Shown in pieces: positions 20,077 through 63,321 of a stretch of DNA of 64,000 nucleotides (its first letter is position 1; each line of letters starts with the position of its first letter). The notes below the pieces were generated by a model. The model saw nothing but the letters and a program-made list of their open reading frames with translations, had not been told where the DNA came from and did not search any database. The position numbers and the translations under genes were made by a program. This DNA comes from Paraspadella gotoi (Eukaryota; Animalia; Chaetognatha): positions 800,721 through 864,720 of the forward strand of contig CM119271.1 of assembly GCA_051294375.1 (NCBI GenBank), read 5' to 3'.

Positions 20077-20268
20077 TGGTGGACTAAAATCCACCAACCG
20101 TTCATCAGCGGCCATTGGTTCTGGAGGCAAGTCATTCGCCTCCTAACACAGAGGGACGGGGCGCTTAACCCGCCTGTAACACGGTGTTACAGCTTGATCC
20201 GAAGCTCAGGAACTGCTTATATTGAACGGTTCTGTCACTAACATAAAACAATAATTACTGTCTCTTCA
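20077..20268 (+). mobile_element. tRNA/twister solo LTR, family F1, copy A (internally deleted)
   Basis: TG...CA termini with perfect 6-bp TSD CCTCTA (20071-20076, 20269-20274). Twister core at 20151-20216; tRNA T-arm and P5 5' strand are deleted. Confidence 0.8.
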
Positions 20269-22023: not shown

Positions 22024-30959
<8,936 letters not shown>

Positions 30960-33415: not shown

Positions 33416-33653
33416 TGTAGTTTTGAGTATTTCATACCCCACTACTCGTCCGAGAATCAGCAGCACCTATGGCGCCGGAGGTAGCAAGACCTCCTCCCAA
33501 CCCAAAGGACTCGGGTTCGCGCCCTGCTGATTCACACAAGTAAAAGCGGGACGGGGCGTCTAACCCACCTGTAGTGTCGGACTACAGCCCGATCCGAAGT
33601 TCGGGACCTTGTGTGCAACGGACGGTAAACTGCTCGCGGCATCGTCTTCCACT
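33416..33653 (+). mobile_element. tRNA/twister solo LTR, divergent subfamily F1b
   Basis: Starts TGTAGT; tRNA-like head (TGGCGCCGGAGG ... GGGTTCGCGCCC) inside a GAATCAGCAG/CTGCTGATTC stem. Inserted into an H2 HINE, with GTAT repeated at both flanks. Confidence 0.75.
33533..33615 (+). ncRNA. Type-P5 twister ribozyme (F1b)
   Basis: CACACAAG-TAAAA-GCGG-GACGG-GGCGTC-U^AA-CCC-AC-CTGTAGT/ACTACAG-CCCGA-UCCGAAGU-TCGGG-AC-CTTGTGTG. T2 is AC/GU, compensatory to GC/GC in F1. Predicted cut at 33561/33562. Confidence 0.82.
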
Positions 33654-34754: not shown

Positions 34755-35468
34755 TTTAGCCGGGTCTGCTTACTTGCTGCTTATCTGCTTATTCCAGCTC
34801 TATAATTCACTTTGTCGGTCCGCCCCCCAATCTTGTCGGGCATTCACTTATATCATATCAACATCAATTTATGATAAATTATGCATTGTGATGTAAACCT
34901 TTCTTTTTCGTTGCGTAATGTTAATTAGAAGAGTTTGAAATTATTGTCAACGAATTTATTTTATTAGAATGGACATGTTTCGTTGACAATAATTTCAAAC
35001 TCTTCTAATTGATAAATTATGCAAAAAAAAATGATGTCCGTCCGTCCGTCTGTCCGTCCGTCCGTCCGTTCCACCTTTGCAAAAAACTCCAATAACTCGT
35101 GATTGGATGGATGGATTGGATCGAAATTTTGTGTGTGGGTAGGAAAGTGTGTGATTGAGCTGGAAATCAAGTTTCGATGGAATCGTCCGAGTGGAAATGA
35201 GTTAAAATGGAAAAAAACCAAAAAAATATTTCACTATTCACATTAATATTAATTAATTAATTATTTAATTGCTTAATTTGTTTGCTCAAACTTGTTCTTT
35301 ATGAAAATAAATCGTTGTACCTAATTTCAAATTCTAAGCATAATTAATCATAACTTGATGTTCTGAGAGGATATAAGTGACTTTCCGACAAAATAATTGG
35401 GGGCGACCAACAGACCGAAAAGTGAATTATAGAGCCGGTATCTGCTGATAAGCAGAACCGGCTAAAAA
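34755..35468. mobile_element. Two oppositely oriented H1 HINE fragments
   Basis: Plus-strand head 34755-35250 with (GTCC)n; minus-strand head 35335-35468 (CTGCTGATAAGCAGAACCGGCTAAAA). Confidence 0.6.
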
Positions 35469-35705: not shown

Positions 35706-38700
35706 TTAATTGAAATGATAATTTGTCGACATCAAAATTCCAAGAAAAAAAATAAAAAAATAGACATAATTATTTGGAATATTTAAGTAACTATTCTCCA
35801 GAATGAATAACAATTCTTGAAAGAGATTACAATCATTATTGTAGAAGTATAAATAAACTCGATTAATGGGAGAATAATAGTCAAAAAATCTCATTCCAGT
35901 CTGCCTCATAAAATCGAAATTTATTTTTCTTATGATCAAGCGACTGTGCTTCGTGGTGACGTTATTGTTTACAGGAAACGCCTTCGTCGGCAGAAATACT
36001 GAAAGTAACATGTAAATTCCCAAGCAAGTAATCACAAAAGCAATTTTTAAAAGTAGAGGGTATCTCTTAGACACTGAGCTTAAATGCGTTGTAATTGAAT
36101 TTAGAATGAGCAAAATAAGTAAACCACAAAAATAATAGAAATTTTCTTTGAAAAAAGACAACATGTAAATAATCCTGAATGTTTGTTGGGTTAGATATGG
36201 AGCAAAGCAAAATTCCATGAGTTGTCTTTGCTTAGATTTCTGCCATTTTCCAGTTAAAACTATTGTTAAAATTATGAAAGAAATTAATAACATAAAATAA
36301 AGACTCTGAACTATTAACTTAATTTTTTTTGGCCTTATATTCTGTAAAAGTCTCATCGTCATTGCAGTAAAGAAAACAGTCAGACACATGAATTCCGTTT
36401 TTAAAAGTATAGTACTGATGTTATAAAGCTTCCATTGGGAATCTACCAGCAGATTTTCAATTTCCGGAACCGAGATCTGATCAAGGTCAAAATGTCTTTT
36501 TCCAACTAACACAAACATATTTTTAACCTTTAAAATATTTCCAGTAATATTTCTATATACATCGATCAAATTAAAATGTTTAATTGAATAAAAAATATAA
36601 GTATAAATGGTGATCGGTGAAAAACAAATAGTAATAATTATTGTTAAAGTCCATTTAACTAAAATCTGATTCAAAAAGAGAAACAAAGCATTGTATGAAC
36701 CACAAAGTACAATATCAATCAGGATAAGAATTAGCAGAATTCTAAGATCTACTTCTAAAAGTGTATAATTTCCAAGAACATTTGGTCTGTCAACAACGAT
36801 TCCCTCGGTACTGCAATTCTGATCCAATCGATAATTTTTATAAGCAAGTTTTCTCCATTTTTTGCTTACCATCCCCTTTGTCATAACAATACAAACAATG
36901 TCACGAAATAGATCGTCTATATTGTCAGAATCAGACAAGTCGCTTTCATTATATTTAATGATAAGTCGTGGAATGTTTATGTCCCTTAAAAATGAAAGTC
37001 CCCAATCTAAATATTGAGTTGAACAGACCTGAAATTGCTGATACGTTAAAAAGTAAAATGAAAAAATTGACACGTTAAATAATGTTTTGAATAACAACTG
37101 GAATACTTCTGTTTTTGTAAATGTCTCTCGTAATCTCATTTTAGGATAAAAATTTGGACGAAAAATGGTTCCTACAATTTCTATTATTTCAATTTCTGTC
37201 AAAACCCGGCTCGCTAATATTGGTGAAATAAAGACTAACCAAATACAGCAATGGATAGCCCAGTGATAAATCAGAAGTAGACCGATCGCTATGCCAAATG
37301 TCCCTTGCAGGGTGCACAAAAGACTGCACAAAGTTGATATGAATCGGTTCTGAGTTGTTTTCCGCTTTGTTGAATTTGTTTCTCTGTATTCATTGGCCAT
37401 CTTAGCTAAGCTTATACCAGAAATAGACATTGACATAAGGCTGAAAAAATTATCTATCGCGTATTTACACTTTCTGAAATCGAATGACGAATGAGTGGAA
37501 CAATCGCAATTGCGACCTTCTATTAGAATCAATGAGCCATTTCCGATATTTTTAAAATATCTTCCTTTCGTCATTTTTCGATGTTGAAGGCAAATCTTCA
37601 GTGAAACATGATACAGGCGCAAAAAATGTTAGTCAAATACATGAAATTTGTCATAATATACACATTACAGTATGTTTTTTTTATTATGATACCCTTTAAA
37701 ACATTTTACCTTTTGAAATGCAACATTTAGTTGTGCCCAGGGATGTGGAGCCGACCTAATTTTGTCTCGGCTCCAGCTCCGGCTCCAGCTCCAGGCAAAA
37801 TTTTTTTCCGGCTCCAGCTCCGGCTCCGGCTCCAAGCAAAATTTTTTTCGGCTCCGGCTCCGGCTCTAGCAAAAATTTTAACTCGGCTCCGGCTCCGGCT
37901 CCAACTCCGGCTCCATTACTATATATATAATTAAAATTTAAGAAATTAAATATTCATAATATATTCTTTAAATCATATAATTTATATTTTGATTATATTT
38001 AACATTTATTTTATATTATATATAATATATTTTAATATTAAAAATATATTATATAATTAAAATTATTTTTAAAAATATTAGAATAATAAGCAAAATAATT
38101 TTTTATTTTTTGGTGATATCCTCACTCTTTGATAATTTAACTGTGAATTATATTTNNNNNNNNNNNNNNNNNNNNNNNNNNNNNNNNNNNNNNNNNNNNN
38201 NNNNNNNNNNNNNNNNNNNNNNNNNNNNNNNNNNNNNNNNNNNNNNNNNNNNNNNATTATATTACTATCAATGAAGGAAATCTTAAAATCTTAAATTTTT
38301 TTAAATTTTTTAATGGATTCTGATAGAGCATAAAAAGTTNNNNNNNNNNNNNNNNNNNNNNNNNNNNNNNNNNNNNNNNNNNNNNNNNNNNNNNNNNNNN
38401 NNNNNNNNNNNNNNNNNNNNNNNNNNNNNNNNNNNNNNNNNNNNNNNNNNNNNNNNNNNNNNNNNNNNNNNNNNNNNNNNNNNNNNNNNNNNNNNNNNNN
38501 NNNNNNNNNNNNNNNATTCCTACCTCATGGGATTCCTCAAACACGGGATTCCTCCCACACGGGAATCCTATCGGATCCTATCGGATTCTTCCCGCAGAAA
38601 ACATAGACTTTTGCAACTGCGAACAGCTGAACTGACCTGACTGCTGCTATATAACTGAGTTTAAAATGTCAGTGAGGATTTTCTCTCTCACACACGGGAA

Positions 38701-41700
38701 TTGACTTTGGCCGATTTCCTTTGAGTCACTCATCGGACTTTTCCGAACACCGACCTGAGGAACATGGACGCCTTGTCTTTATACTCACCTCATTATACTC
38801 TGTGCTCTACCCATGATTCTTCTATGCACTTACTGTTAAGGTAGATAGATTTCACTTCGATCTAGCTCTCCAGGTCCCCAGCTAAGATTTATTTATATCT
38901 CTTTTGACAAATTCCGGCGCAAAATACTCTTGGTATAGTTTTAGTGTCTCTGAAGCATTTTCAAATCTAGATGTAGGTAAAAAATTTAGTAGTTTTTGTT
39001 GAGGTTTTTTAATCTTTCTGTACTATAAATAAAACATAGAAATTACACAATTAAAAATTAAATTAAGAGGTCAAACTCGGAATAAAATTAAAGGCAAGAC
39101 CTAACAGATTAAAATATTTTTTAATTTTTGCTTTTATGATTTATTGAATTCATATAAAGTCCCGAAGAGACTTACAATTTCATAGTTTAAAAAATGATAC
39201 ATCCATTTTGTTGGCTTTCCCTTATCAGTTTTTTTGGGCATTTTGAATATCGATGGAGAGATAAGACAAAGCCGATCCCAAATATGTATTTGCTTTTTAT
39301 TTATCATTAATTTTAAGCAAAAGGTAAAGTTGCAAAGTTTAATTAGGTCGACAAAATAATCTAATTTTGCGAAACGAAAATTGACGTGTCGCACAAAAAT
39401 GTCCATTTTTTTATTATCCTATTTATATTTTTGAGTATTTTGGGTATCGACTGAAAGCTAAGATCATGAGGTTTTTAAAAATGTTTTTCATTTATCTACA
39501 AGTGGAAATCTTTAGTCTAAGGAGCCCAAATTTTATTCCAAAATAGCTCAAGACATGTATTTTTTAGCGCCTCTAGATCATATACAACTCAATTAGATAT
39601 AAATCTATTTTTGAGTTGAGAATATGCGATGTTCATTTGTTTAAAACAAAACAATTCTCGCACACCCACAGCTCCTCTTGTGAAATAGTCAAAATTAAAA
39701 AAACACAAGTGTAAATTAATATTCCATTTTGTGCAAACAAAACAATTTTTAGTCTTAAGGAAAAGTTTTAAATTGAGAAATTTGTCTTTGCCTTCATTTT
39801 GAATTTAATCCCACATATTTAATTAATTTGATTTCATTCATTTTTAAATTAAAATCATAAAAGGAGGATATCCATAGCATGTTGATTAAAACCAGTCGTT
39901 GTGTATATTAAAAATTAAAAATCAATACTCAAAATTATTACATAAGCAAATAATACGTACCTGCATATTGATATCAATAGGGATTTCTTATGATGGTTTT
40001 TTTAATGTTATGACGTAGAAGCGCATGCTAAATTGGTACTTTATTTATATATTATGTTAGATAACAATTAAACATAATATATAAAAGAAATAACAAATGA
40101 TACAATTCATATAAACAACGTCTAGTAGTTCTCAAATAATCGATATACTTATGATTTAAAATCTCTATAACAATTTAAAGTATACGTAATGGCGACGAAG
40201 GTTTCGCACACCACGGGGTAGACCCTAGTTAGGTCACTATGTTGTAGGGTCCGCGAGAAAGAATGCCGTTCACTGAGCGTCTCCTCTCTCTCTCTCTCTC
40301 TACTCTCTCTCATCTCCACTCTTTTACTTGGTCATACTTGGATTCTTCTCTCCGTCAGTCTCTTCTCAAGCAACCTTTTTATCACTTAACTCTCTCTCTG
40401 TTAACTGTAGTCGGCGTCGCTTATAGTAAACTTCGCTTTTTTATTCTTATGCCAAGTTCTCAGCCTCAAAAGATAATTTATTTTTTAGAGTAAGCTCTGC
40501 TACATTAAAAATGATAAAAGATTTTACTTACCTTAACTTGACAAAGTATCAAATGTTATTTGAACCTTAAACTAACAGGGAGAACTCAGACGTATAAAAA
40601 ACTGGTTAAATGCAACGGGAGAGAGAGAGAGTAAGAGAGAGAGAGAGAGTTCCAAAAAATAGAGAATTATGTAATTGTAAGAACGTACGTGGAACTGAAG
40701 ATGACTGTCCGTTATTTCTATAACCCCCTCGAACAGCATGAATGGGTCCCTGGGCTTGGAACCAGGCTTGAGGGTTTGTCATACCCCCAAGGCGGCTTAC
40801 GGCCATCCTCATGCTTCCCGCAGGGTAGGTACCAGGTTGGGATTGAACCAGGTACCTAGTGGTCATGAGCTGATGGCTTTACTCAATGAGCCACCGGGTC
40901 ACAACTGAAAGTGTCATGCTTCTACGCGGGGTGAACCTAGGCAATGCCCGACTACATGCCCCCCAGATTGTAACCCACCCTGCACTGCTTCCAGTGGAGG
41001 GAAGGGAGCAATCTTCAGCTCGACCAAGGGCCTGGAATCAGAAGGTTGGAATACGCTCCACAGGATGGGCTCACCAGTGTGAATAAGGCGCTACGTGGGC
41101 TGAAGATGACTGTCCGTAACTTCTATAACCCCCTCTAGCAGCCATGGAACGGGTCCCTGGGCTTGGAACCAGGCTTGAGGGTTTGCCATGTCCCAAAGGT
41201 GGTTTACGGCCATCCTCACACTTCCCGCAGGGTAGGTACCAGGTTGGGATTGAACCCGGTACCTAGTGGTCATGAGCTGATGGCTTTACTCAATGAGCCA
41301 GCGGGTCACAACTGAAAGTGTCCTGCTTCTAGGCGGGGTGAACCTAGGCAATGCCCGACTACATGTATATTCACCAAAAAAAATTAATTGTCTTTAAAAT
41401 ATTCTCAAATACTTTAAAAAATATTTTTGAATTTGTTATCACAGTTTTTGTTATCTTTCGGCGCGAGCTGGCACCTACCTTATCAGTATCACCAGTCCAT
41501 TCTAAAACAGTGGCCGCAGTTTGAACCAGCAACTGCAAATAGGATTCTACTATCACATGAATCAAATTCAGTCGGGTTAAAACTATATTTTTGAGCTTTT
41601 CTGATTTCAGCGCTTTCTTCAAATTGAGTGGGGATTGTCTGGGGTGTGATATGAGACAGGTTTTTTTTAATTAATTATCCAAAAACAATTTAAGAATATG

Positions 41701-44700
41701 CATTATGCAATGTAATTCAATCACAATAACCGTCAATTTTGTCCTTAATACTTTTTAGGTAATTAGTCCATTACTGATATTCTACTAATTAAGCACTTAA
41801 AATACATATTTTTCCTTTTTATGCTTGGTAAAATGATAGTATTAACAAATGTTAATACTAATGTTGGATCCTATTTAAACATAGGTGAATTGTAATTGAA
41901 CATTCATTTGTTTAGTTTGATTATTATATTAGTTACTTCAAACAAATTATTTTTATTGAAATTATTGTGATAAAAAAATGATAATTAAGCCTTTTTTATA
42001 TAAACTTAAATTTGAATATATTGAAACATACAAATCATTGGAAATTTTTGATGAAAAGTTGCAAGATTGTTTTACTATATGTATTAGACTTTAAAATTTG
42101 TTGTTAATATTTTAAAATAATGTAAACATTTAATATTTTAAACTATATATTAGTTTAAAATATATTCTTTATATAAAGTAATAAATATTTTACTATTTAA
42201 CTTTTACCTGCTGTCCAGATAGATGTCAAGATCAATGGCTGCAGATCCTAACCCAATGATATGCACAAACAGCGTGAGAATCCAGCGTCGCCTGTTTTCT
42301 GTCAATCGCGGAAAAATCCTCCCGAATCTTTCATGTGGTGTAATGAAAAATTAAATGATAATATTAACTGAAATTTATGAAATTGGTACAACCAATATAT
42401 TTATTTATTTTATTCAATAACTAATCTATCTTGTCTCCTGACAGAATAGTTTATGATATGTTAAACTTAAAGCCTCCATCCCTCTTTGCACTTTGATTAA
42501 TACTCTTTCTCAGTTCAGTTTGTTAACTTCCAGAGCACTTTGCTTCCCTATCAATGATGTTGTACTATATAGTATTAGACAAGTATTAAGTCGCAGAATA
42601 CATTTGTACTTCGTATTAGCACATACAATAGGAAATATAAAAATAATAAAGTATAAGATAGTAAACTTCATTCATTGTGATTTTGGTGTAAAGTATAAAA
42701 AAAAGTAATTAATTTTTAGTCGGTTCTGCTTATCAGCAGATTCCAACTCTATAATTCACTCTGTCGGTCCGTCGGTCCCACCCCAAAATATTGTCGGTAA
42801 ATCATTATTATCATATCAGAACCTCGAATTATGATAAATTATGCAAAAAAAATGATGTCCGTCCGTCCGTCTGTCCGTCCCCCCTTAGCAAAAAACTCTA
42901 ATTACTCGTGATTGGATGGATGGATTGGTATGAAATTTTGTGTGTGGGTAGGAAACTGTGTGATTGAGATGGATATGAAGTTTCGATGGAATTGTGCGAG
43001 TGGAAATTGGTTTAAATGGAAAAAACAAAAAAATCTATTTCACTATTTGAACGCCAATTGCTCATGAGTGGATAGGGTAATTGACTTGAAATTTTGTATG
43101 ATGGTAGGAAAGTGTGTGATTGAGCTGAATATAAAGTTTTGATGGAATCGTGCGAGTGGAAATGAGTTAAAATGGAAAAAACAAAAGTCATAATTACTTA
43201 AAGTCATTTTTACTTAAATTTACTCATAATTATTATGTTTATTAAAAATTGGATTGATAAATTGAAATTGAATTTTGTGTGTGGGTAGGAATGTATGTGA
43301 TAAAGCTGGATATAAATTTTTTGATGGAATTGTAGGAGTAAAAAAGAGTTCAAATTAAAAAACCAAAAAACACATTTATTTGAATTTTTTAAAGTTTTGC
43401 TGGTTGGATGGAATTAAATTTTTTGTGTGGGTAGGAAAGGATTGTTGATTTTTTAAAGCGTCTGGATATAAAAACTTTCGATCTGGTGACTTATATGGAA
43501 TGCAGGTGTGCAGGGAAGGAAATTAGTTTTTTAAATGTGGAGAAAAAAAAAACATAAGTCGATTCGAATTTACTAAAAATCTTGTTACTTATTCCTTACC
43601 AATAAATCACTCCAGATTAGCATCATAATTGAAAGATGCAATAATACTGACCGGCGCGCCAGATACAGCCCACCATGATTGTTTCGAACAAACTTTGTGT
43701 CTCACACGACTCCGTGTCACTACCACGTAGAGCTCGATTCGCATCGCAACATCACCGACCTACTTTAGTCTGCCGCACAGGACTCAACACTTGTAGAAAC
43801 AAACACTACATAACAAGTACGATCGAAAGTCGTATAACCTGGTGATCGCTCACCCTACACTCCGATGGCTCGATCAACAGTTCATACCATCGCTCATCAA
43901 GTGGTGGATACACGGAAAACGTCGTACTTCTGGACGAACAGCCTTGATATAAAGTTTTCAGTGAAACCCGCCACACCCCGAACAAACGTCCCGTTAATGC
44001 ATATCTACTTTTCAACAGGTTGGCGCATAACCCCCGTACACTAGTGGAAATTGCCCAGTTTTTTAAATGGAAGTTAAAAAAAAAAAAAAATATGAGTCAC
44101 ATTTACTTGAATCTTTTTATTTTATTTACCATATAGATTGAGATAATTTTGTGAGCCGGTGAAAAGTGAGTGAGAAGCTAGATATAAAGTTTTGACGGAA
44201 TGCAAGTTGAAAAATTAGAAGTTAAAAAAATCTTAAAAGCATAAGGATCGTCGCTATTGCATAAAAAGAGAGAGAGAGAGGAGAGAGAAGAGAGAAAGGA
44301 GAGGAGAGAGAGAGAGAGAGAGAGAGAAGAGAGAGAGTGAGAGAGAGAAGGAGACATAAAATAAAAAATCTTAAAGACTCAAGATCGAGCAGAGCCCACT
44401 ATCATAGAAAATTAATGAAAAAACGGGAAAAAAGAATGAATCATGCGATAACGAATTGTTGATGTACTAGTAATTGATTGAGGTAATACTAATTGATTGA
44501 TGTAATAGTAATTTATTGATGTAATAGGAATTGATTATTGATTCGATGATAATCAATTATTGATGCGATGATAGTCATTCACTGCTGTGATGATAGTCAT
44601 TCAGTGATGCGATGATTGTCATTCATTGATGCGATGATTGTCATTCATTGATGCGATGATAGTCAATAAACAAACAAATGCGTGTATGAGTGAAAGAAAG

Positions 44701-44841: not shown

Positions 44842-45309
44842 GAGAGAAAGAAGAGAATAAATCCACGAAAATCTTGGATGAAAATATGGGATTTTGTATT
44901 GAAAAAAGCGCGGATAAATGGCAATAATAAAAGTTTTTAGAAGGAAAAAAATAATCAGAATTTTTCAAAAAACAACGATCACGCAAGAGTACGGACAGAT
45001 AGGGACACACACAACAGAGACAGAGAGACAGAGAGAGAGAGAGAAAAAGAGAGAAGAGAGAGAAGACAGCCGCTGCAGAGAAAAAGAGAAGAGAAAGAGC
45101 GATATATAATAATAAAAGAGAGAGAGAGAGAGAAAGCTCTACAGCCCCTTTTACTGTTAGAGATTCAGCAGTACTTATGCGCCGCACGTAGCGTGGCTAT
45201 TCTCTACCCAAAAGACCCGGGTTCGCGCCCTGTTCGCGGCATCGTTTTTTACATTAGTGAACCCACATTATATCTAAAAAATTTTTTAAGAAAAAAAAGA
45301 GAGAGAGAA

Positions 45310-48300: not shown

Positions 48301-51300
48301 AAAGGAGAGAGGAAGAGGAGGCCGGGAAGAAGAGCGAGTGAAGAAAAAGGCGCGAAAAGAGATGCTGAGATCGAGGATCGGCTCACGGGTCAAGGAGGGA
48401 GGGTTAGTAAAAGAATGCGCGATTCGAATCCATCGGTGAGAGAAGGGATCAGTACGGCAGCAAAGAAATTGTGTAATGAAAACTAAAAAGAGAGGAGTAG
48501 TTTTAGGAGAAAAGATAGAAATTGGTATTGAAATAGTAAACAATAATCAAAAAGTAATGATTAATATAATTAAAATCGAAATGGTTGCATTAAATATTAT
48601 ATTAAAATGGAAATATATATATATCTCTGTGAAATAAAATGAAACGGGATTGTGGGTTACAGAGTGACAATAAGAAATACAGATTAAAACGAAATAAAGG
48701 TAATCATGAAATTACGGAATAATAATAGTGACAAATAGTAGAGTAAATAAAGTAGAGTAGTAACAATAAGAGGAGAGACAATGTCTTGAAATATCTAATT
48801 AGAGTAACCGTGGGGAGATAGTAAAATAGTAAAAGGAAAAATACTAAGGGAAAAAATTACATTAATGTCCCGGTTATCTTGCTAAGAAAATAGATTACCG
48901 ATTTTATATGTTAACAGTACAACACTAAATGTCCCGGATTAGCTAAATAGATAGTGGGTTAGTGATCTTACCTGCTTCTGTTGCTGTGATATTGTCTCTC
49001 TGGCGTTGAGTGAAGAAACAATTTTCCAAATGTTCTAGCATGATAGTTATTCTGTGAATATAGTGTAATATCTATCTCCTCCTGATCTCACATGACCAGG
49101 CTTCGCTCCCTCTCCCTTCTTGAACGTCTCGTCTCTCTCTCTCCTTCTCTCTCTCTCTCTCCCTCTATTTCTCTTTCTCTCTCTTTCTCTCTCTCGCCCA
49201 GGCCAAAATCTCTCTCCCTCGCTGTTACTGCACACTTCACATAGTTACGTGACTAGGCATCGCTAGGAAACAAAAAAACCAGATCTGACTGAGCTCCCTC
49301 TCGACGCTGAGATTGCCCCCCTATTCTCTCTCTCTCTCTCTCTCGCTCCCTCTCTCTCCCTCTCTCTCTTGCTTTCTCTCTCCCCCTCTCTCTCTCTCAC
49401 TTCCTCTCTCTCTCGCATCTTCTCTCCCTCTCACTCCCTCTCCCCGTTTCTTCTTGGTTTCTTTGTCCTTTCTCAGAATGGATACCATTCAATATGAGGA
49501 TGAATACTCTCAATTTTATGAGGAAGCTCCCTGGACCGACGTTGTTTCCCAATCTATTTCAAACATAGAAAACAGGTTTGAGAAATTAGAAAAGGTTCTA
49601 CTAGACAAAATAGTAGGCGTGTATGAGTCCAGAATAGATCAATGGGATACAAGATATTCAAAACTTCGATCTTTGTACGACAAAAGAGGAGACGGACTTC
49701 TTGAGACCAAACAAAAGCTTTATGACTTAACTCAAGAGCTAAAAGAAACTAAGGAGGAACTTTCAGGGATGAAAAACCAAAATGACAAAATTTTACAAAT
49801 TCAGTTAAAACTCGACAACAGTAGCAAGGAACTTAAAGAAAAAGAACTGGAGCTTAACAACGTAAAGAAGCAGCTAAAAGAAAAAATGGATATAGTCGTG
49901 AGAATGGAAAAAGAAAATGAAAAGATTTCACAGTTTCAAATTAAACTCGACAAAAGAAACAAAGAATTTAATGAAAAAGAACTGGAACTTTGCAACATAA
50001 AGCAAGAGCTAATAGAAACAAAGGAAAAGGTCGCGCGAATGGAAATTGAAAATAAAAAGGTCTCACAACTTCAGATAGAGCTTAGTATAAAGGAAAAGGA
50101 ACTGCGTGACATCAAAATAGTGTTAAAGGAGAAAAAAGAAAGTCTGTCAAAAACGGCTCAACCCGAATCGCCGCCCGCCTTGGCCTTGCCCCAAAATGAT
50201 AAGAAAGAAAATTCTACCTCTCTTGTCTTTCCTCCCTCTACTTCAGCCCCCAACTATAAAGGATCGTTTTCAGCGCCCATTCTTCCATCATCTAATCAGA
50301 AATCCGCACGAAGGAGATATGCGCTGATAATGAGAGGACCAATTCCAGAGAAAGCACAGCAAATTTTCTTTTCCCATCAATCTAAAAACTCGGTAACCTG
50401 TCTCTTCTGTAGAAATGACCACTCAATTACCCACTGTTTTCAATTCAGAACTCTTCATTTCAATGACAAAAAATCATTTGCTACTAATCATCGACTCTGT
50501 TTTAGATGTCTGACGCCCGGTCATGTCTCCAAACATTGTCGGTCTAATCGTCATTGTGCTGTCTGCAATGGGTTTCACCATTCGTCACTTCATGATTCAT
50601 CGGTAAAAAAATTCACAGAACGTAGACCTGAGTCACCACCCATATTAGTTCCCATGACGAGGACAACTCTTCCAGCTAGGTTTCCTGCAGCACCAACAGC
50701 AACTTCAACGCCAACAGCAACATCAATTCCAACAGCGTCCCCAACCCCAACAACATCTACAACGCCAGCTGAAATAACATCAACTTTAACTCTCATATGA
50801 TCCGTGACCACTTGTTTAGATATAAAATTTTGCAAACAAAATACACAAATCTGTCGGCAAGGTAATTCAAAGAACAGGGCAGTGCTTATAAAATTTGACT
50901 AGGATTCATTTCATTTCATTCCATTACCAAGGATGAGTGAGGAAGGGTTATCAGGACCCTTTCAGAAACCACGTTCAAAGGATGAACTTACATTTGTTGT
51001 GAAAACCTGGGAAGTAAAGAAAGCCTTACCCAAAGATATTGAATGGAAAGTATCAATTGCTACCCTTAAGTGGGATCTACAAAATTCATAGAAACCTTCT
51101 TGTTGAAATAATAACAAGTTAAGACCCGATGGTGGAATGAGAGAAATAGGTGAGCATGAATCACAAGGATTACTCCAAATACTTAAACCAGAGAATTGCC
51201 TCTCCCTTCTGATGCTTAAAAATACGATGAATGCAACAAAACTCGAAAACTCAAAACAAAAACCCAAAAACCTTACCAAATCAAACTCCAAATCATACCC

Positions 51301-54300: not shown

Positions 54301-57300
54301 CTTATTGCGTGGAGTTGGGACTAAATCTTGTAATTGTTTTTTTTTTATTTTCTTTTAAAGTGAACATTCGGCAAAGGAAGCCACGAGAGCAGCGGAAGTA
54401 TCATCTCGCGGCTCAGGAGCCACTAATCTAACATATCCTCTGCTCTTTTCATCACCAAGCGTCTAATCCCTTACACTAATTCTTTTCACTCTATCAACAC
54501 ATCAGTAATACTAGAATGTAACTGTAGATTCCATGGATGATGGTTGAACCAATGACTCATTCGTTCTCCTAGGAAATGAGTCCAGCAGGAGAAAATACCT
54601 GAAGCTAAGAGATTTAATCAGTGAAGGTTCAGATCTTTAAGGAATATTTAATTCAAAATCAATAATCACAAGTGAATCCAACACTAGAGTCAAGAAGATT
54701 GATAAAGGAATAAGTAGACGAACCAGAAATACGCAGATTTCACGCCTGGGAGTTGGAAGTAAACAAAAGCCGCACAAAGAGAAATGAGTGCAAGAGGCAC
54801 AACCGTCTCCTCCTCTGCTTAATTTCCATCTCTATGTGAATTTTTGCGCAAAAAAAAAAGGGTTTCAGCAGAGTAGAGACTAATTTCAAGATAAGTTGTT
54901 GGTGGTTTCAGAGAAGGGGGCAAGTATTAAGTCATTAAGACACAGCCAGCCACTGTATACGAGATCACTAGCATAATGTACGTTTTATTTAGGCTATGAT
55001 TTTTGCACTTATACGATGTACTATTCGTTGGCCTTATCTCTGTTCGGTATTCTCCTGATTTAAGAGGTGACTTAATGGAATTGTAAACGCCCTATCAGCG
55101 CGAGTATGTCAGCTTATGCCATGTATTTAACCACGTATTGCCTGGCAGTACTTCCTCCCTATGAGTGATTAATTAAATTTCCATATTTAGTTACATCATA
55201 CACTATTCTCCTGCCTCAATTCACACATTCATCGGTCTTAAATCTTATTATATATTTATTTCAAAACGAAGGAAAAGGTATTACAGATATAGAAGTTCAT
55301 GAATCAGATTTCACACTACATTATACGTAGGTCTATATTTGACTTTTCTATTTCATATATTATCTATTGACGTCGGAGGCTTTCTTTCAATTCCCAGATT
55401 TTCAACAACAAATATAAGTTCACCTTTGAACGTGGTTTTGACAAAAGGGTCCATGTAATACACCTACTCTACCATCCATATGGCGATTTACCATAGCGAG
55501 AGATGGATTATGCAACATGTTGATATCATAGTCAACATTCTTATATAGCACTGCCCTCGTATCTCCATTTGCGAAAATTTAAAACCTATTGCAGAGTCCT
55601 AGAGATTCAGTGCCCTATCCACTCATGAGCAATTGGTGTTCAAATAGTGAATATATTTTTTTTTTGTTTTTCCATTTAAACTCATTCCCACTCGGACGAT
55701 TCCATCGAAACTTTATATCCAGCTCAATCACACACTTACCTATCCACACACAAAATTTCATTTAAATCCATCCATCCAATCACGAGTAATTGTGTTTTTT
55801 GCTAAGGTGGGATGACGGACGGACGGACGGACGGACGGACGGACGGACATCATTTTTTTTGCATAATTATCATAATTCGATGTTCTGACATGATATAAGT
55901 GTGTGCCCGACAATATTGAGGGGGCGGACCGACGAACGCGAAAAAGTAGTTATAAGAAGTCGGGATCTGCTGATAAGCAGATCCGACTAAAAATAGGGGC
56001 AGGGAGAGGGAGAAAGAGTGAAAAGAAATTAATATATGGGGATTGGGGAGAATTGTGAAAACGAGAATGATTAAAAGGAAAGTAAAGATAATAAAGAGGG
56101 AAAAAAGAGAATCAGAGAGGGAGAAAAAGCAGAGAAAGAGAGGAAGGGAAAAATGTCAAGGAAGAGAAATATGAGGGCAGAAAAGTCGGAGAAAGAGAGA
56201 GACAGAGAAAAGAGAGAGAAGGTTCAAAAGAGAAAAAAAATAGTGAAAAAAATGGAAAAAGTTTTATAATATAGAGTGCCGTTTTTTTGCCTAAGCAGTA
56301 ATATATCTAAAAAACACCATGAATCTTACGAGCTATTTAATCGATTAAATTGTTTTAGTTTAATCCTAATTTGGGCTGATACCGTAATTAGAATGATTGC
56401 CGTAAAAGAAATCATGTCGTAAATTATAAATTCACCCAGTGAGTTCTATGTTATAAGGAGAAGATAACTATAGCTAGGAACTGACGTCGTTCTTAGAGAT
56501 TGAGGAAGATATTTTCAATAGAGATTTTTGTTCAAATCTGACTACCAAACAATATAAACAAAACAATAAAAATACTTAATTCCGATCCTGTTGTATCTGA
56601 AGGACTCACATTTTTTTTCTCTTGTCAAATCATCAACATCTTGATATCAAACAAGCCAGAACAAATAGACTGGAAAAATTTTTTATCTCTGATTTTATAT
56701 AGAAATGAAAGGGATTTTTTTCCTTGAAAACGATACAAACGTGACTGAGGTATGTTCCTGTTCAACAAATGACGTCCAATTTTGGAATCCTTTGGCAAAG
56801 TGTCTGAAGGGCTCTCAAAATTTGTCTTTACATTTTTTTTGGTTATTTTGATATGATACAATCATGGGAAAGTGAATTAGTTCATTTTGGTGAAATTTTT
56901 ATTAAAATCAAAAGTAAAAGAGGAGCTAACGATCGGAGTTTTTAGAGTTTTCAACCGAGAGTCAGATTCGGTAAAAATCTTCTATGGCGAAAATCTTCCA
57001 AAGAAGGGGTGGATTTTCCAAAGATTTTGGTTAATATTTTCTATATTTATGGTCGGATTTTTTTGAAACTTAATATTAACAATATTGCCATCATTCTACC
57101 TTGGCCGGTATAAGAATATATTAAAAAAACCTATGGCTTTGTTCATCAGAGTTTAGTCCTACTATAGCCAACCGTTTTATCAAATGAAGAATTTTTCATA
57201 TTTATCCGTGAGAACAAAGGAAATTATAATTATTTAAGTTCTAATTTCATTGTTTAAAATACCCGAATCAAAATCACTACCTTATGTCATAATCCAGTTT

Positions 57301-60300
57301 ATTCTCAAATTCGAATCTCACAGCTGCCACCACATTTAAGTAAAAACGAAATCGAAACAAGATTTATTCTGAGAATAATAAAGTGACGGTGAGACACACG
57401 CAGGAGTCCAGATCAATTCTACTGAAACTAAAGAAAGCTTGGTCTATTTATATCTAGAAAAGAAGATCAGAGGCAAGAGTTATTTTGACAGTTCCATGAC
57501 AGTATATGAATAAACTTTTAAATATTGATTAATTAAAAAATAGTTGTGTCCTTTAATTGCTATTGAACATCTCTTTTGATAATAAAAAAGCTAAAAAACA
57601 ATAAAAATTTTATTATAAATGGTCGTTAAACATTGATCAATTTTTTACGCTTATTTGCATATTCGGGCATTTGTTATTCAGCCAGTGGGAAGTAATTAGC
57701 AAACTTTAGGAGAAAAAGTCCTAAAACGTGACATTTTAGCCCAAGCTATTCTTAATTTTTTGACTTGACCTTCATACCCCACTCTATACAATCTAAAATA
57801 AGTGTAGAAAAACCTTTTTAAAAATGCGATCCCATGAATTGTCGACACGAGAGAGTGAAGAACGAAAATGAGAAGGAGAATCCACCCAATGATTATCGTG
57901 TAAGTCTCCCTGGTTTTTACAAAACAATCCTTGGAATTATACATAATTAAATATTTCTATATATTATAGACAAAGCCTATTATTTATTATGAGATAGTAT
58001 AATTAATATGGAATTAACATAGAAAATTAATATATTAAAATGACAGTAAATATTGTTATGTATTAGTGACAAAACCGTTCAATATAAGCAGTCCCTGAGC
58101 CTTGGATCAGGCTGTAACCCCGTATTACAGGCGGGTTGAGCGCCCCGTCCCTCTTAACTGCTAAGCGACCACTGGGCTAGAACCCCGGACCTTTGGGTTG
58201 GGAGGCGAATGACTTGACACCGGCACCAATGGCCGCTGATGAACGGTTGGTGGATTTTAGTCCACCATAATATTTCTTAGACGATAACATTGATCAAAGA
58301 CTTAAAGTATGATGCTATCTAAAAATTAATTAAAAAGTTTAAAATTTTTAGTTATAAACAAAAGAAAGGTTTTATTATATAGTATCTGAATTGTAAAAAA
58401 GTTTTTACCTACAGATTATTATGAAATAAGATAACAATTTTTTTCAGTTTTTCAACTATCACTGAAACTATGTCAGTTTTTGTAAATCGCTTTACAGATT
58501 TACTTACCCCCTGAAAAGTTTTTTCTCCCGATTTTCCCAATTTTTTTTTTCGTCTTCTTTATAACTTTTTCTACCTACTATGAGGATTTGTCTCTTACTT
58601 TTTCTACTATGAGCATTTTCCCTTTACTTTCTATAGAAATTTGCTCTTCTGTCTGCACCCACTAGATATTCACTTGCATTGCTTTACACAAAATAACAAA
58701 TTTTTGCTTGTTATGGTCTTAATAAACCAGATGGCTCCACAAACAAAAGAGCGTTTTTAAAACAAAATAGCAATGAAATTTAGTTTTAGTATATCTTTTC
58801 TGAAACAAAAGAACAGTCCTATTAAATCTTCTTTGTATTTTCACCCTATTCTACTAGAGGGCTTTACAAAACAGGAGGCCTTTTGTAAGACAAAGGAACA
58901 TTCAAAAAAATTTATCTGCACCCACTAGATCTTCACTTGCACCTGCTCTACAACAAAATAGCAAGTTTTTTTAAATTTTTTCATTGTAAATATTTTTAAA
59001 AATAATTTTTTTGTTATTTTTGCAAAATATAAAAATATGCAAAATTACCTGTTTTTCTATTTTCTTGTTGCTTGCATTGTGAATGGCCTTCTTTCGCCGC
59101 TTGCAACATAATCTTAAAAGTATAATGATCTTGCCAAACCTTACTATCAAAAAAATTAATAAAAAGTATTATAATCTAATTTGCATATTGCAGTAAATCA
59201 TGATTAAATAGAAATTCAAACAAAAAATATTTGAATCGATATGAAACAAAAAAATGGACACACATTTTAACTTCCTCACCGCCTCACTAATGGAACTTGA
59301 TAGTTGAAAGTTGAAAAAATGCTGCAAGTTGAAAACATTATGTAAGTTGAAAAAATTATGCAAGGTGAAAAAATATTGCAAATTGAAAAAATTATACAAG
59401 TTGAAAAAATTATGCAAATTAAAAAAATTATGCATGTGTGGCAAGTCATAGGAGGGTCGATATTATTGATATCACGTGACGATGAGGTGACAACTGAGAT
59501 GTGAGATGTCTAAGATGACATGACAATTATCATTTATGATATAGTCCATCGCAGGGAAAAGATCACCTCTAATTTTGAATTGATTGTTTATTTGATTTGT
59601 TGATTAGAATCATTTGATTTGTTGAATTTGAGATAAAAGTTTTTCTCTAGCTTTTTAATGTATTCTTACATTATAGTAGAGTAGATAAAAACATTTGTTG
59701 TGGAGCATAAAAACAATGTATTCAATTCAAGAGTAAAAATCAGTAAAAAATCAGTAAAAACAAAATCAGAAACCAAAGACCCATCTGGTGGAGGATGATT
59801 TTAATTGGATTCGAAAACAAAAGTCTCAGTTGATTTAAAGGTTTAAAAAAGGGATTTGAAGCTTTTATTTTGTGGCTAGCTGGATGGGTAAGTTCGGTGA
59901 ACGAGGCATCCTAGAACCTTAGGCCCGGGTTCGAATCCCGGAGTGGTTAATTTTTTTATATATGATTTAATTGCTACACATGTTGAAAAAATTATGCAAG
60001 TTGAAAAAATTATGCAAGATGAAAAAAATTATACAAGTTAAAAAAATTATGCAACTTGAAAAAATTATACAAGTTGAAAAAATTATACAAGTTGACAAAA
60101 TTATGCAAGTTAAAAAAATTATGCATGTTGAAAAAATTATGCAAGTTGAAAAATTATGCATGATGAAAAAAATATACAAGTTGAAAAAATTACGCAAGTT
60201 GAAAAAATTATGCAGGTTGAAAAAAGTATGCAAGTTGAAAAAATGATAAACGCTAAAAAAATGATAAAAGCTAAAAAAAATAATGCAAGCTAAAAAATTG

Positions 60301-60856: not shown

Positions 60857-61140
60857 TGTGGATAAAGCGCTAAGTGGGCTGAAGACGACTGTCCATAACT
60901 TCTGTAACCCCCTCTAACAGCCATGGAACGGGTCCTGGGCTTGGAACTAGGCTTGAGGGGCTGCCACGCCCCCAAGGGAGCGTACGGGCGTCCTTACGCT
61001 TCTTACAGGGTAGGTACCGGGTTGGGATTGAAACCGGTACCTAAATGTCTTGAGCTGATGGCTTTACTCAATGAGCCACCTGGTCACAACTGAAAGAGTC
61101 ATGCTTATAGGCGGGGTGAACCTAGGTAATGCCCGACTAC
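60857..61140 (-). mobile_element. F2 solo LTR with decayed twister
   Basis: Colinear with 41078-41363. Catalytic G changed to A (AAGGA), UAA changed to UAC, T2 lost. Confidence 0.8.
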
Positions 61141-63321
61141 TGGAGCATCTATACAACACAAAGTTAAAAGTTACTTTCCGCCATAGTTTTCTAATTAGAT
61201 ATTAGATATCATTCTTGTTAAGAAGTCATTTATTGAAAATTTCAAAATACCTAAAAGTCTGAGCAGAAGGGGTGGAGAGGATAATTTTTTATGGGATTAA
61301 GGTTATTTATGATTCGTTATTGTTGAGGGTTAAGACTACCAAGTAGAATTGAATGTTCTGATAGGGATACATACCGGGGAAAGCTGTTTAAAGAAAGTGG
61401 CGTCCTTATATATTAGATGTAAATTAAAAGCAACTTTACTAGAGCAAAATACTATGGCGTCTGTTGGTAGGTTGGTCGGTTTGAAAGTTACTGCTGCAAA
61501 ACACCTTTTGCAGGACTTGACTGGTTATATGGCTCATTACTTAAGCATTAAGCAATTCACAAAAAGTCTTATTTTTTTCGTCTTTTTTTGTTTTTATCTG
61601 TCTTTAGAAATACTTTTTCATAGGCTCTAATAATAATCTCTTTACTCTTGAAACAGTTTTGCATTAAAATAGCTAAAAGATAATTTGGCATAATATTTAG
61701 CATACTAAAAAAAATCTTAAAAGCATATGGGTCGTCGCAATCGCATAAGAAAAATCTGAATTGACGACAAATTTTGATACTAAAAAATCAAATTTGCGAT
61801 TGTCAATTAAAAAAAATAATAATTTACTGAGGAAAATTACAGTTATAGTTTCTGAAAATAGAAATCTACTATGAAATTAAATTGAATAGGGGCGGGGGTA
61901 TAGAAATCTCATTACACAAAAATAAATGACACTGCTAAAATCTTTATATCACAAATTACATTCCCCTAACCCTAACTACCCCTAACCCTAACCACCCCTA
62001 ACCCAATTGCTTACCATTTAAAAAATATAACATAAAAATATTATTTATTTTCTTTTCATTTTGGTTATTTGTTTAAGGTAGAAAATGAATTGTTTATGTA
62101 CGAATTTTATTTAGAAATATAAATTTCGCAAAAACGAAATATAATTTTCGCAAAAACGAATTGACTTGTGAAACAAATATTTTTACAGACTCTCTTCAAA
62201 CTTTATGAAAATATTTGTTTCACAAGCCAATTCGTTTTCGCGCTGATGAAGGCTTACATTGAAGTCCGAAATTTATGTTTCTTAGTAAAAAAAACTCGTA
62301 CATCAACAAACAATTCATTTTTTACCTCAAACTTTAAAATTATAAATTTAAATAAATTTAAAACAATTATTATTTATTATAAAATTAAGAAATTTGTATA
62401 TTACTTTGCAAACTAAGACTCGACGCGAGAGAGAAAAATTTAAATGACCGCTAGTACCTAAAGTTGGTTGCGGACGTTGAATAGTAAAGTTACCAGGAAA
62501 TATAATATTTTAATTAAAAAAAGGTTTATATCCGTGCAATTGTATTTTTTTATTAGATCATTGTAATTATTAAAAAACTTGTGTGACTTGCCTATTGATT
62601 TTTTTTTTGAAGCCTTGCAAATCGGAACTTTGAAGTTAAAGCGACGATTCCTGTGGTAATAATACAATCAATTAAAGCTGGTCATCAATGATAAATTTCC
62701 TGAAAGAGGAATAACTTTGGTAATGAACAATATACAGGGTTGTAACCTAAAGTTTTAAAATAATATTCGGTTGTAGCCTCATCGTTTCTGTACCTCTCTC
62801 TCTTTCTCTCCCTCTCTCTCTCTATCTTTTAGGATTTAAGTATTTCGTGTTTTAATTAATTCCACAATTTAATACGTAAAATAAGTGATATATGTCATTT
62901 ATTCTTCCTTTGTAGCAAAGTGAATAAATCGCGCGATACAGAAATCGATAATGAAAACTGTATGATCGAAAATTGATTGAAGCTCCCATTTTTGTGATAA
63001 TGAAAGGACGAAAATAAAAGATCATAATGAAAATGGAAACTTGGAAGGTAATGACGAAAGATTTTTCGGGAGCTCCAAACTCAACTAATTGATCAAATTG
63101 TTCGATTAAACAAACTGATTGATTGATCGATCGGCTCCTCTGCTATAAGTAATACTGTCCAAAAAATGACACACTACATCTTTCAGAATTTAATGGCTTT
63201 TTAGAAAATTTAATTTGGAAAGGCCCTTGATTTAATTTTTAGAGGTCGAGAAGCGGGAAGAACTTGGCACAATGTAGTACTACTATGAGTATGACTAAAC
63301 TCTGACGAAAAAAGCCAGATT

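What the first reader, a model, noticed from the sequence alone, without database searches (positions are those of the whole stretch)
40676..41363. Candidate animal LTR-retrozyme: mini LTR retrotransposon whose LTRs carry a tRNA-derived Pol III promoter plus a twister ribozyme
Seen (minus strand): 286-bp LTR (TG...CA), PBS starting TGG one base after the LTR (TGGTGAGCCCATCC), 121-bp non-coding interior, G-rich PPT and a second LTR. Each LTR has tRNA A/B boxes followed by a type-P5 twister. The predicted cuts (41206/41205 and 40799/40798) are 407 nt apart, and the element has no TTTT on the sense strand, so Pol III could read through both. Established: plant LTR retrozymes use LTR hammerheads to release circular monomers; Cassandra/Helenus (5S-derived) and Ajax (tRNA-derived) are TRIMs with Pol III-derived LTRs; twister leaves 5'-OH and 2',3'-cyclic phosphate ends that RtcB-type ligases join. 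Inference: double self-cleavage yields a 407-nt one-LTR circle holding PBS and PPT, which an autonomous partner's RT could copy around to regenerate two LTRs. This would explain a ribozyme cutting downstream of the promoter. I am not aware of a described element combining tRNA promoter, twister and LTR/PBS/PPT in animals, but could not search for one.
Basis: partly seen in the sequence, partly recalled or inferred. Interest (0 to 1): 0.95.

Follow-up and report, generated by a model that had tools for sequence, protein, structure and literature searches.

The report
Twister-ribozyme mini LTR retrotransposon, animal
This is an ageing copy of an abundant, protein-free jumping element, likely of an animal, whose two end repeats each carry a tRNA-like promoter motif followed by a conserved twister-type RNA fold that is predicted to cut the element's RNA into a 407-base unit, which would likely be closed into a circle and copied by a helper element's enzyme.

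Summary
The anatomy is real: a 286-bp LTR, PBS-like site, 121-bp interior, G-run PPT and a second LTR (about 92% identical); sequencing runs hold very many copies. Each LTR has tRNA A/B-box motifs and then a P5-permuted twister fold. Rfam scores it only 16.5 bits (cut-off 37.6) because P1 is shrunk to a 6-nt self-complementary word, P2 is bulged and P3 is added. Two other LTR families in the window carry the same fold, with compensatory changes in both pseudoknots; the third was found out of sample and keeps 23 of 23 pairs. This copy is decayed (pseudoknot mismatch in LTR1, P2 mismatch in LTR2). My ten literature searches found no twister version. Two catalogued wasp Helenus LTRs appear to hold an unremarked hammerhead in the same place. 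Cleavage, Pol III use, circles and the primer tRNA are untested; lack of TTTT is chance-level. The scan noted related twister-LTR families earlier on other pieces of this genome. New variant of a known kind.

The parts
41078..41363 (-). 5' LTR (LTR1), 286 bp, TG...CA
   Evidence: loose ends at both borders
41289..41300 (-). tRNA A-box-like motif, LTR1 (one mismatch to the pattern used)
   Evidence: fits the TRGCY motif given for Helenus in PMC10886601
41246..41256 (-). tRNA B box, LTR1, 44 nt after the A-box start
41149..41228 (-). Twister fold 1 (type P5: P5, bulged P2, T1, 6-nt P1 word, T2, P3, P4/L4); predicted cut 41206/41205; T2 mismatch at 41200, P3 6 of 8 pairs
41207..41212 (-). Self-complementary hexamer in place of the P1 hairpin (LTR1)
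41063..41076 (-). PBS-like site, one base after LTR1; primer tRNA not identified
   Evidence: 9 of the first 10 bases fit the tRNA-Trp end listed in Fig. S2 of PMC10886601, compared by eye
40957..41077 (-). Non-coding interior, 121 bp
   Evidence: longest ATG ORF in the whole element 63 aa sense, 66 aa antisense
40957..40971 (-). PPT-like end with G6 run (40964-40959)
   Evidence: 10 of 15 purines
40676..40956 (-). 3' LTR (LTR2); 3' end scrambled, true end within 40672-40676
40839..40893 (-). A box to B box span, LTR2
   Evidence: alignment to LTR1
40742..40821 (-). Twister fold 2; predicted cut 40799/40798; both pseudoknots and catalytic bases intact; P2 mismatch at 40812, P5 mismatch at 40743
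40799..41205 (-). Predicted 407-nt unit between the two cuts (one LTR equivalent, PBS, PPT)
   Evidence: inferred product
41364..41367 (-). Probable 4-bp TSD, 5' copy
   Evidence: same four letters at 40673-40670
40670..40673 (-). Probable 4-bp TSD, 3' copy (requires LTR2 to end at 40674 without CA)
   Evidence: uncertain
40654..40659 (-). First T-run (T6) after the element, in the flank; possible Pol III stop
60857..61141 (-). Solo LTR of the same family (A), 87% identical; general-base G and A2 lost; flanks match at 3 of 4 bases
27590..27823 (-). Family B solo LTR (TA...CA, exact 4-bp TSD), tRNA-like head plus twister of the same topology; other copies 20075-20268(+), 58041-58269(-), fragments near 24.8 kb and 25.8 kb
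33416..33653 (+). Family C solo LTR (exact 4-bp TSD, terminal CA altered), tRNA-like head plus twister; found out of sample
45155..45253 (+). Twister-less sister of family C (99 bp, TG...CA): same head and tail, T6 run where C has none

Best explanation
This is a decayed copy of a very abundant, non-coding mini LTR retrotransposon, likely of an animal, whose LTRs carry tRNA A/B-box motifs followed by a conserved twister fold; Pol III likely starts in the 5' LTR, the two twisters are predicted to cut out a 407-nt unit, and that unit would likely be ligated into a circle and copied by a helper LTR retrotransposon. Shown: the LTR/interior/LTR layout, abundance, box motifs, and the twister core with covariation in both pseudoknots across three LTR families. 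Inferred: Pol III use, cleavage, ligation by an RtcB-type ligase, tRNA priming at the PBS, and a Gypsy-type helper (4-bp TSDs in the sister families). A double cut removes the terminal repeat needed for strand transfer, so only a circular template lets reverse transcriptase run past the junction and rebuild two LTRs with the promoter, as modelled for plant retrozymes. The 6-nt self-complementary word that replaces P1 likely lets two twisters pair, which would favour cutting in two-LTR transcripts; this last step is the least certain.
For: Anatomy. Abundance: 6081 contigs of run X1 lie on the stretch; interior bins show summed depth 39,061-75,878 against 30.3 in the unique flank (the tool warns this is not a copy number). 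X1 record 2 spans LTR2 start, whole interior and LTR1 end with 20 other letters, so it is another two-LTR copy. Twister core: phage and metagenome P5 twisters above Rfam's cut-off (42-55 bits) share the 18-nt P4/L4 (by design of the search) and also both halves of the P1 base (L004, L005, L009); L006 has a 3-bp P2. Families A and B align without gaps over the core; 94.8% of 154 cells pair, 9 of 22 pairs change on both sides, including 2 of 3 T1 pairs; slid controls 19-50%. For the 13 template-defined pairs, family B keeps 13 of 13 with 4 double changes, p about 0.003-0.013. B's T1 variant occurs in a 49-bit phage twister (L096). A model from A+B found family C (58.3 bits), which keeps 23 of 23 pairs over 10 differing positions, with a double change in T2 (854 of 200,000 redraws). 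Of 8 variable positions in laid contigs, 4 lie in the P3 loop, 1 is the P2 bulge, 1 keeps its pair, and 2 are places where this copy departs from a better-paired majority. P1 and P2 imperfections are tolerated by tested twisters (PMC11662667); P1 is dispensable (PMC5408937). Circle model and RtcB ligation: PMC4918200 and PMC7229834. Host: ATF4-like gene in the window (E 7.6e-9 to 1ci6).
Against: No cleavage, transcript or circle data exist here. Rfam gives 16.5 bits against a cut-off of 37.6, and family B gave no twister hit. Energy models do not favour the twister scaffold in these copies (-12 to -15 against -25 to -30 kcal/mol, pseudoknots not counted; P2 and P5 pair probability 0.0 in whole-LTR folds). 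The 407-nt unit is not unusually self-paired (z -1.27), unlike the stable folds reported for retrozymes. LTR1's T2 mismatch is of a kind that lowered mean cleavage from 0.76 to 0.53 in PMC11662667, so this locus may cut poorly. The covariation rests on three families (few events), and P1 and P3 pairs were chosen by inspection of A and B. One cut alone leaves a terminal repeat and needs no circle. The PBS matches no listed tRNA fully, and this copy's TSD is uncertain. A decayed fragment near 22.9 kb and the solo A copy have P1 words that are not self-complementary.
Confidence: 0.58

Rival explanations
1. The twister is active, but the element replicates as a linear RNA. One cut (at either LTR) trims an end and still leaves a terminal repeat for normal strand transfer; the ribozyme acts as an end-former in place of the oligo-T terminator, and circles are by-products or absent.
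For: A cut in LTR1 only leaves about 128 nt of repeat; a cut in LTR2 only leaves about 100 nt (coordinates). Weak P1/P2 may make cleavage partial. The twister-less sister at 45155-45253 has a T6 run where family C has none. Cassandra is described as using a linear RNA with short terminal repeats (PMC10886601).
Against: Both LTRs carry the same ribozyme, and nothing seen here would make only one cut. Plant LTR retrozymes with the same layout accumulate circles (PMC4918200, PMC7761336).
Confidence: 0.24
2. The fold descends from a twister but no longer cuts; it is kept as a structural signal, for instance a dimerisation or packaging element built on the palindromic word.
For: Sub-threshold Rfam score, no intramolecular P1, a 2+1-bp P2, and competing folds. 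Predicted hexamer duplex energies are -6.3 to -8.9 kcal/mol in 7 of 8 copies.
Against: The general-base G is kept in 7 of 8 copies, A1 in 8 of 8 and A2 in 7 of 8, and both pseudoknots covary; a non-catalytic signal would not need these. Tested twisters tolerate such P1/P2 defects.
Confidence: 0.11
3. The element is not an LTR retrotransposon: two tRNA-headed, twister-bearing SINE or Penelope-type repeats lie in tandem around a spacer.
For: This copy's TSD and LTR2 end are unclear; tRNA-promoter plus hammerhead SINE-like repeats exist in Schistosoma (PMC6765202); unchecked scan notes report similar twisters in Naiad elements of other genomes.
Against: TG...CA ends, TGG one base after the LTR, a G-run before LTR2, a multi-copy interior bridged to both LTRs, 55 bp upstream of the A box, and exact 4-bp TSDs in 2 of 2 intact B copies and in C.
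Confidence: 0.04

Closest known systems
Helenus TRIMs / TRIMp3 (Kojima 2024, PMC10886601; main text parts 1-4 of 6, supplement parts 1 and 5-10 of 11 read)
   Same: Short non-coding two-LTR element with tRNA A/B boxes in the LTR, PBS, G-run PPT, solo LTRs, 4-bp TSDs in animals; 688 bp lies within the 311-1263 bp range.
   Different: The paper describes no ribozyme (one mention, in a reference title). Twister L4 motifs gave 0 hits in the supplement (positive control 48 hits; line breaks can hide matches). Many listed LTRs have a T-rich run just after the B box (by eye); here a twister sits there.
Helenus-2_SyJa and Helenus-2_SyUm (Synergus wasps, Data S1 of PMC10886601)
   Same: tRNA boxes, then what I read by eye as a type III hammerhead, no T4 run after the B box, tRNA-Trp PBS.
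   Different: Hammerhead rather than twister; not remarked in the parts of the paper I read; my reading was not computed.
Plant LTR retrozymes (Cervera et al. 2016, PMC4918200; review PMC7761336; PMC9695139; passages read)
   Same: Ribozyme in each LTR, non-coding interior, PBS, PPT, 4-bp TSD; a double cut gives a unit without R that circularises; Gypsy helper proposed.
   Different: Type III hammerhead, tRNA-Met PBS, 600-1000 nt units, plants, no tRNA-type promoter reported in the passages read. Animal retrozymes are described as lacking LTR, PBS and PPT (PMC7229834; bioRxiv 10.64898/2026.07.22.740005).
Type-P5 twister ribozyme (Rfam RF02684)
   Same: Order of elements, catalytic G and A, L4, T1, T2, P4; near-identical words in L004, L005 and L009.
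   Different: P1 hairpin replaced by a 6-nt self-complementary word, P2 has a 1-nt bulge, P3 and a P5 stem are present; score below cut-off.
Twister variants of Schistosoma Perere-3 (PMC8501958; passages read) and dimeric hammerheads of Penelope-like elements (as reviewed in PMC6765202; passages read)
   Same: Twister serving a retroelement in an animal; palindromic shortened stem that works as a dimer (hammerheads).
   Different: Perere-3 is an autonomous non-LTR element with one 5' twister; the dimeric precedent is a hammerhead, not a twister.

Membership tests
Helenus / TRIMp3 | Short non-coding element with two LTRs | tested here: met
   688 bp, longest ATG ORF 66 aa
Helenus / TRIMp3 | tRNA-derived A and B boxes in the LTR | tested here: met
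   TRGCY at 41300 and GGTTC at 41256; not a functional tRNA (ARAGORN finds none at ps85)
Helenus / TRIMp3 | PBS complementary to a tRNA 3' end | tested here: inconclusive
   TGG start in place; 9 of 10 to a listed tRNA-Trp, by eye; host tRNAs not available
Helenus / TRIMp3 | PPT before the 3' LTR | tested here: met
   G6 run, 10 of 15 purines, like the G-run ends in Data S1
Helenus / TRIMp3 | 4-bp TSD (animal families) | tested here: inconclusive
   Probable for this copy; 3 of 4 for solo A; exact in 2 of 2 intact B copies and in C
Helenus / TRIMp3 | Pol III transcription and Gypsy helper | not testable with these tools
   No raw RNA reads and no genome
Twister ribozyme | Conserved catalytic and loop bases (general-base G, A1, A2, L4) | tested here: met
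   Present in both LTRs
Twister ribozyme | Two pseudoknots T1 and T2 | tested here: met
   Double changes in 2 of 3 T1 pairs and 1 of 2 T2 pairs across families; LTR1 itself has one T2 mismatch
Twister ribozyme | Stems P2 and P4 | tested here: met
   P4 5 bp; P2 2+1 bp with a bulge in all three families
Twister ribozyme | Intramolecular P1 stem | tested here: not met
   6-nt self-complementary word only; P1 is reported dispensable
Twister-P5 (RF02684) | Score above Rfam gathering cut-off | tested here: not met
   16.5 bits against 37.6
Twister ribozyme | Self-cleavage at U^A | not testable with these tools
   Needs a bench assay
LTR retrozyme | Self-cleaving motif in each LTR around a non-coding PBS/PPT interior | tested here: met
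LTR retrozyme | Type III hammerhead as the ribozyme | tested here: not met
   No hammerhead family listed; the motif is twister-type
LTR retrozyme | Highly self-paired unit RNA | tested here: not met
   Circular fold z -1.27 against 60 shuffles, on this decayed copy
LTR retrozyme | Unit-length circular RNA in vivo | not testable with these tools
   Only assembled contigs were available

The most novel reading that the evidence does not exclude
A radiation of animal LTR retrozymes arose when a twister cassette was inserted behind the tRNA promoter of a Helenus-type LTR and replaced its oligo-T terminator. The twister is an obligate dimer: its P1 forms only between two copies through a palindromic hexamer, so two-LTR transcripts cut and circularise while transcripts of the many solo LTRs mostly do not. 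Wasp Helenus-2 reached the same design with a hammerhead, so Pol III promoter plus ribozyme would be a recurring way to build a circle-replicating LTR element.
Probability: 0.33. Interest if true: 0.88.

Novelty: new variant of a known kind. Interest (0 to 1): 0.74.

Why it matters
LTR retrozymes are described as plant elements with hammerheads, and animal retrozymes as lacking LTR, PBS and PPT. An animal LTR element with its own Pol III-type promoter and a twister would extend circle-based LTR replication to animals and to a second ribozyme class. It would give twister, whose biological roles are mostly unknown, a testable job. The palindromic P1 offers a natural dimer-gated twister, which my search for dimeric twisters did not find described. 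The fold falls below Rfam's cut-off, so such ribozymes are likely under-counted in animal genomes. All key predictions can be tested with short in vitro transcripts and one RNA blot.

Tried and rejected
No genome is held, so no genome-wide copy, TSD, tRNA or helper search was possible. No RNA holder listed for certain; X9 is only guessed to be RNA and all runs are contigs, so expression and circles were not tested; 'goes back about 406' joints also occur in DNA runs and show nothing about circles. Rfam over 39.5-42.5 kb gave 0 hits at E<=1. A type-P1 or type-P3 register using the downstream G-rich word at about 41135 was tried by inspection and rejected (no P2, no A1). Rfam's own register has no U^A before P2 and was rejected. 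Self-priming: the best match of the PBS to the element is 7 nt, not pursued. No-TTTT as evidence: chance-level (301 of 1000 for A, 455 of 1000 for B). Search for phage twisters with a collapsed P1: 84 loci, 15 parsed matches, 11 distinct, 0 of 11 with an exact palindromic linker. No viral contig held the family's 20-nt core word. The metagenome scan gave 7 loci with no LTR similarity beyond the searched word; 6 of 7 were Rfam P5 twisters. L001, L008, L094 and L095 did not look like twisters. Homologue search with the bZIP protein found none at E<=1e-8; the Atlas gave Rotifera and Arthropoda clusters, so the phylum stays open. Supplement parts 2-4 and 11 of PMC10886601 were not read, only motif-searched.
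Full report
Observation. On the minus strand, LTR1 runs 41363-41078 (286 bp, TG...CA), the interior 41077-40957 (121 bp), and LTR2 starts at 40956. The repeats are 407 apart and 92% identical by BLAST. Of the first 260 aligned positions 19 differ, and 10 of the last 24, so LTR2's 3' end is scrambled and lies within 40672-40676. The four bases before LTR1 recur at 40673-40670, a probable TSD. TGG starts one base after LTR1. A G6 run precedes LTR2 (10 of 15 purines). The longest ATG ORF is 66 aa. An A-box-like motif starts at 41300 and a B box at 41256. TTTT is absent from the sense strand, but also from 301 of 1000 shuffles.

Abundance and host. No genome is held. Twelve runs hold the stretch or part of it, nine of them of organism A. 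In run X1, 6081 contigs lie on it; interior bins show summed depth 39,061-75,878 against 30.3 in the unique flank, which suggests thousands of copies although the tool warns that this is no copy number. Loose ends pile at 41363, 41078 and 40956. One contig spans LTR2 start, interior and LTR1 end with 20 other letters, so other two-LTR copies exist. A solo LTR lies at 60857-61141 (87%). An ATF4-like gene in the window (E 7.6e-9; nearest Atlas clusters Rotifera and Arthropoda) points to an animal; the phylum is open.

Is it a twister? Rfam gave nothing over 3 kb and 16.5 bits for Twister-P5 on LTR2 alone, against a cut-off of 37.6 and in another register. Searching with the P4/L4 word retrieved phage and metagenome loci; 7 of 8 scanned hold P5 twisters of 42-55 bits (L002 and L007 are the same sequence). 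Three of them (L004, L005, L009) also share both halves of the P1 base with the element, which reads like their P1 with the hairpin's middle removed. L006 has a 3-bp P2. A descriptor matches only the two LTRs in the window, against 0 in 100 shuffles. The fold is: P5, P2 of 2+1 bp with a one-base bulge, GA, T1, a 6-nt word, U^AA, T2, P3, P4/L4.

Covariation. A second LTR family (B) in the window has a tRNA-like head, exact 4-bp TSDs in 2 of 2 intact copies, and the same fold; outside the core it has no significant similarity to family A. Three A and four B copies align without gaps over the core. Of 154 cells 94.8% pair; 9 of 22 pairs change on both sides, including 2 of 3 T1 pairs; slid controls give 19-50%. 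Taking only the 13 pairs fixed by the twister template, B keeps 13 of 13 with 4 double changes (p 0.003-0.013 when differing letters are redrawn). B's T1 variant occurs in a 49-bit phage twister. A model built from these seven copies found one new strong hit, family C at 33416-33653 (58.3 bits). C keeps 23 of 23 pairs over 10 differing positions against B, with double changes in T2, P3 and P4 and a different 8-bp P5 (854 of 200,000 redraws). These are three families, so few independent events, and P1 and P3 were first chosen by inspection. Within family A, 8 positions vary in at least 3% of laid depth: 4 in the P3 loop, 1 at the bulge, 1 keeping its pair, and 2 where LTR2 departs from a better-paired majority.

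State of this copy. LTR1 has a T2 mismatch (41200) and 6 of 8 P3 pairs; LTR2 keeps both pseudoknots but has a P2 mismatch (40812); the solo copy has lost the general-base G and A2. In a test of natural twisters, P1, P2 and P4 defects were tolerated, one mismatch in the 2-bp pseudoknot lowered mean cleavage from 0.76 to 0.53, and A2 changes nearly abolished it (PMC11662667, section 32 read). The locus is thus an ageing copy, and the mechanism below describes the family. Energy models, which omit pseudoknots, prefer other folds, and the 407-nt unit is not unusually stable (z -1.27).

The P1 word. All three families have a 6-nt self-complementary word here, each different; 7 of 8 copies keep it, with predicted duplexes of -6.3 to -8.9 kcal/mol. 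About 5% of hexamers are self-complementary when G-U is allowed. The innermost pair joins adjacent bases and can form only between two molecules, and it changes on both sides between A and B. That suggests a dimer, as reviewed for Penelope hammerheads (PMC6765202, passages). Against it: P1 is dispensable (PMC5408937, passages), a collapsed hairpin gives a palindrome by itself, and a decayed fragment near 22.9 kb has a non-complementary word. No phage twister with such a palindrome was found (0 of 11 distinct parsed matches from 84 loci).

A possible origin. At 45155-45253 lies a 99-bp TG...CA element with family C's head (79% over 75 nt) and tail but without the 106-nt twister cassette, and with a T6 run where C has none. 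It looks like an ordinary Helenus LTR. It is one copy, and deletion from C is also possible.

Mechanism (inferred). Pol III would start just upstream of the A box in LTR1 and run to the first T-run at 40659. Two cuts would release 41205-40799, with PBS and PPT but no terminal repeat. By the plant retrozyme model (PMC4918200, passages), ligation to a circle lets a helper reverse transcriptase copy past the junction and rebuild both LTRs; RtcB circularised animal retrozyme monomers in vitro (PMC7229834, passages). A single cut would leave 100-128 nt of repeat and allow normal replication, which is the main rival. The PBS fits 9 of 10 bases of the tRNA-Trp end in Kojima's Fig. S2, by eye; the host's tRNAs could not be checked.

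Comparison and novelty. Helenus is the tRNA-derived TRIM and Ajax the 5S-derived one; animal Helenus makes 4-bp TSDs and is thought to use Gypsy (PMC10886601). The element fits Helenus on the features I could test, with PBS and TSD inconclusive. That paper describes no ribozyme, and twister loop words gave no hit in its supplement. Helenus-2_SyJa and SyUm LTRs hold what I read by eye as a type III hammerhead after the B box. It works like an LTR retrozyme but is not a member by the hammerhead criterion. Reviews and a 2026 preprint place LTR retrozymes in plants and describe animal ones as non-LTR; one review mentions insect elements with type III hammerheads as in preparation. Twister is known at the 5' end of a non-LTR element (PMC8501958) and in an exogenous plant circle (PMC12542633). 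Ten searches listed no paper on a twister in an LTR element or on a natural dimeric twister; the library lacks most subscription papers, and Repbase and Dfam were not searched. Unchecked scan notes report related families in this genome (units of 413-488 nt) and palindromic P5 twisters in Naiad elements elsewhere; they are not counted as support.

Verdict. Real element, very likely a true twister fold under selection, circle replication likely but unproven. New variant of a known kind; interest 0.74.

Noticed in passing
window 27590-27823(-), 20075-20268(+), 58041-58269(-), about 24759-24853(-), 25727-25848(-): Family B: solo LTRs with TA...CA ends, tRNA-like head and the same twister topology; no interior seen in the window.
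   Followed up: yes
window 33416-33653(+): Family C solo LTR with twister; its only T4 run lies upstream of the tRNA-like head.
   Followed up: yes
window 45155-45253(+): Twister-less sister of family C ending in T6 then CA; possible pre-insertion form. A 3-nt direct repeat flanks the cassette in C.
   Followed up: partly
window about 22900-23030(-): Decayed fragment of a fourth tRNA-head plus twister copy related to C; truncated in P3, P1 word not self-complementary.
   Followed up: partly
PMC10886601 Data S1, Helenus-2_SyJa-LTR and Helenus-2_SyUm-LTR: Apparent type III hammerhead with long complementary loops downstream of the B box, not mentioned in the parts of the paper read; read by eye only.
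   Followed up: partly
window 17768-18466(-): ATF4-like bZIP reading frame, used to place the host among animals.
   Followed up: yes
window 49289-50800(+): 503-aa frame with a coiled-coil stretch and three Cys/His knuckle-like motifs that recall a BEL/Pao-type gag (recalled, untested); no Pfam hit, Atlas score 0.77.
   Followed up: partly
window 35706-37628(-): 640-aa stop-free hydrophobic frame with no Pfam hit.
   Followed up: no
window 42712-43077, 55613-55994, 63319-63615, 35010-35238: Another interspersed repeat family with short tandem GTCC-type units inside; not classified.
   Followed up: no
window 41220-41211 with 41110-41101 (-): A 10-bp long-range helix can pair the general-base strand with the LTR 3' part and competes with the twister fold; it could silence the ribozyme after transcription.
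   Followed up: partly
L003 144-208, 433-489, 902-969; L006 238-297, 902-960: Metagenome contigs with clustered ribozymes: a pistol plus two P5 twisters within 900 nt (L003), two P5 twisters (L006).
   Followed up: no
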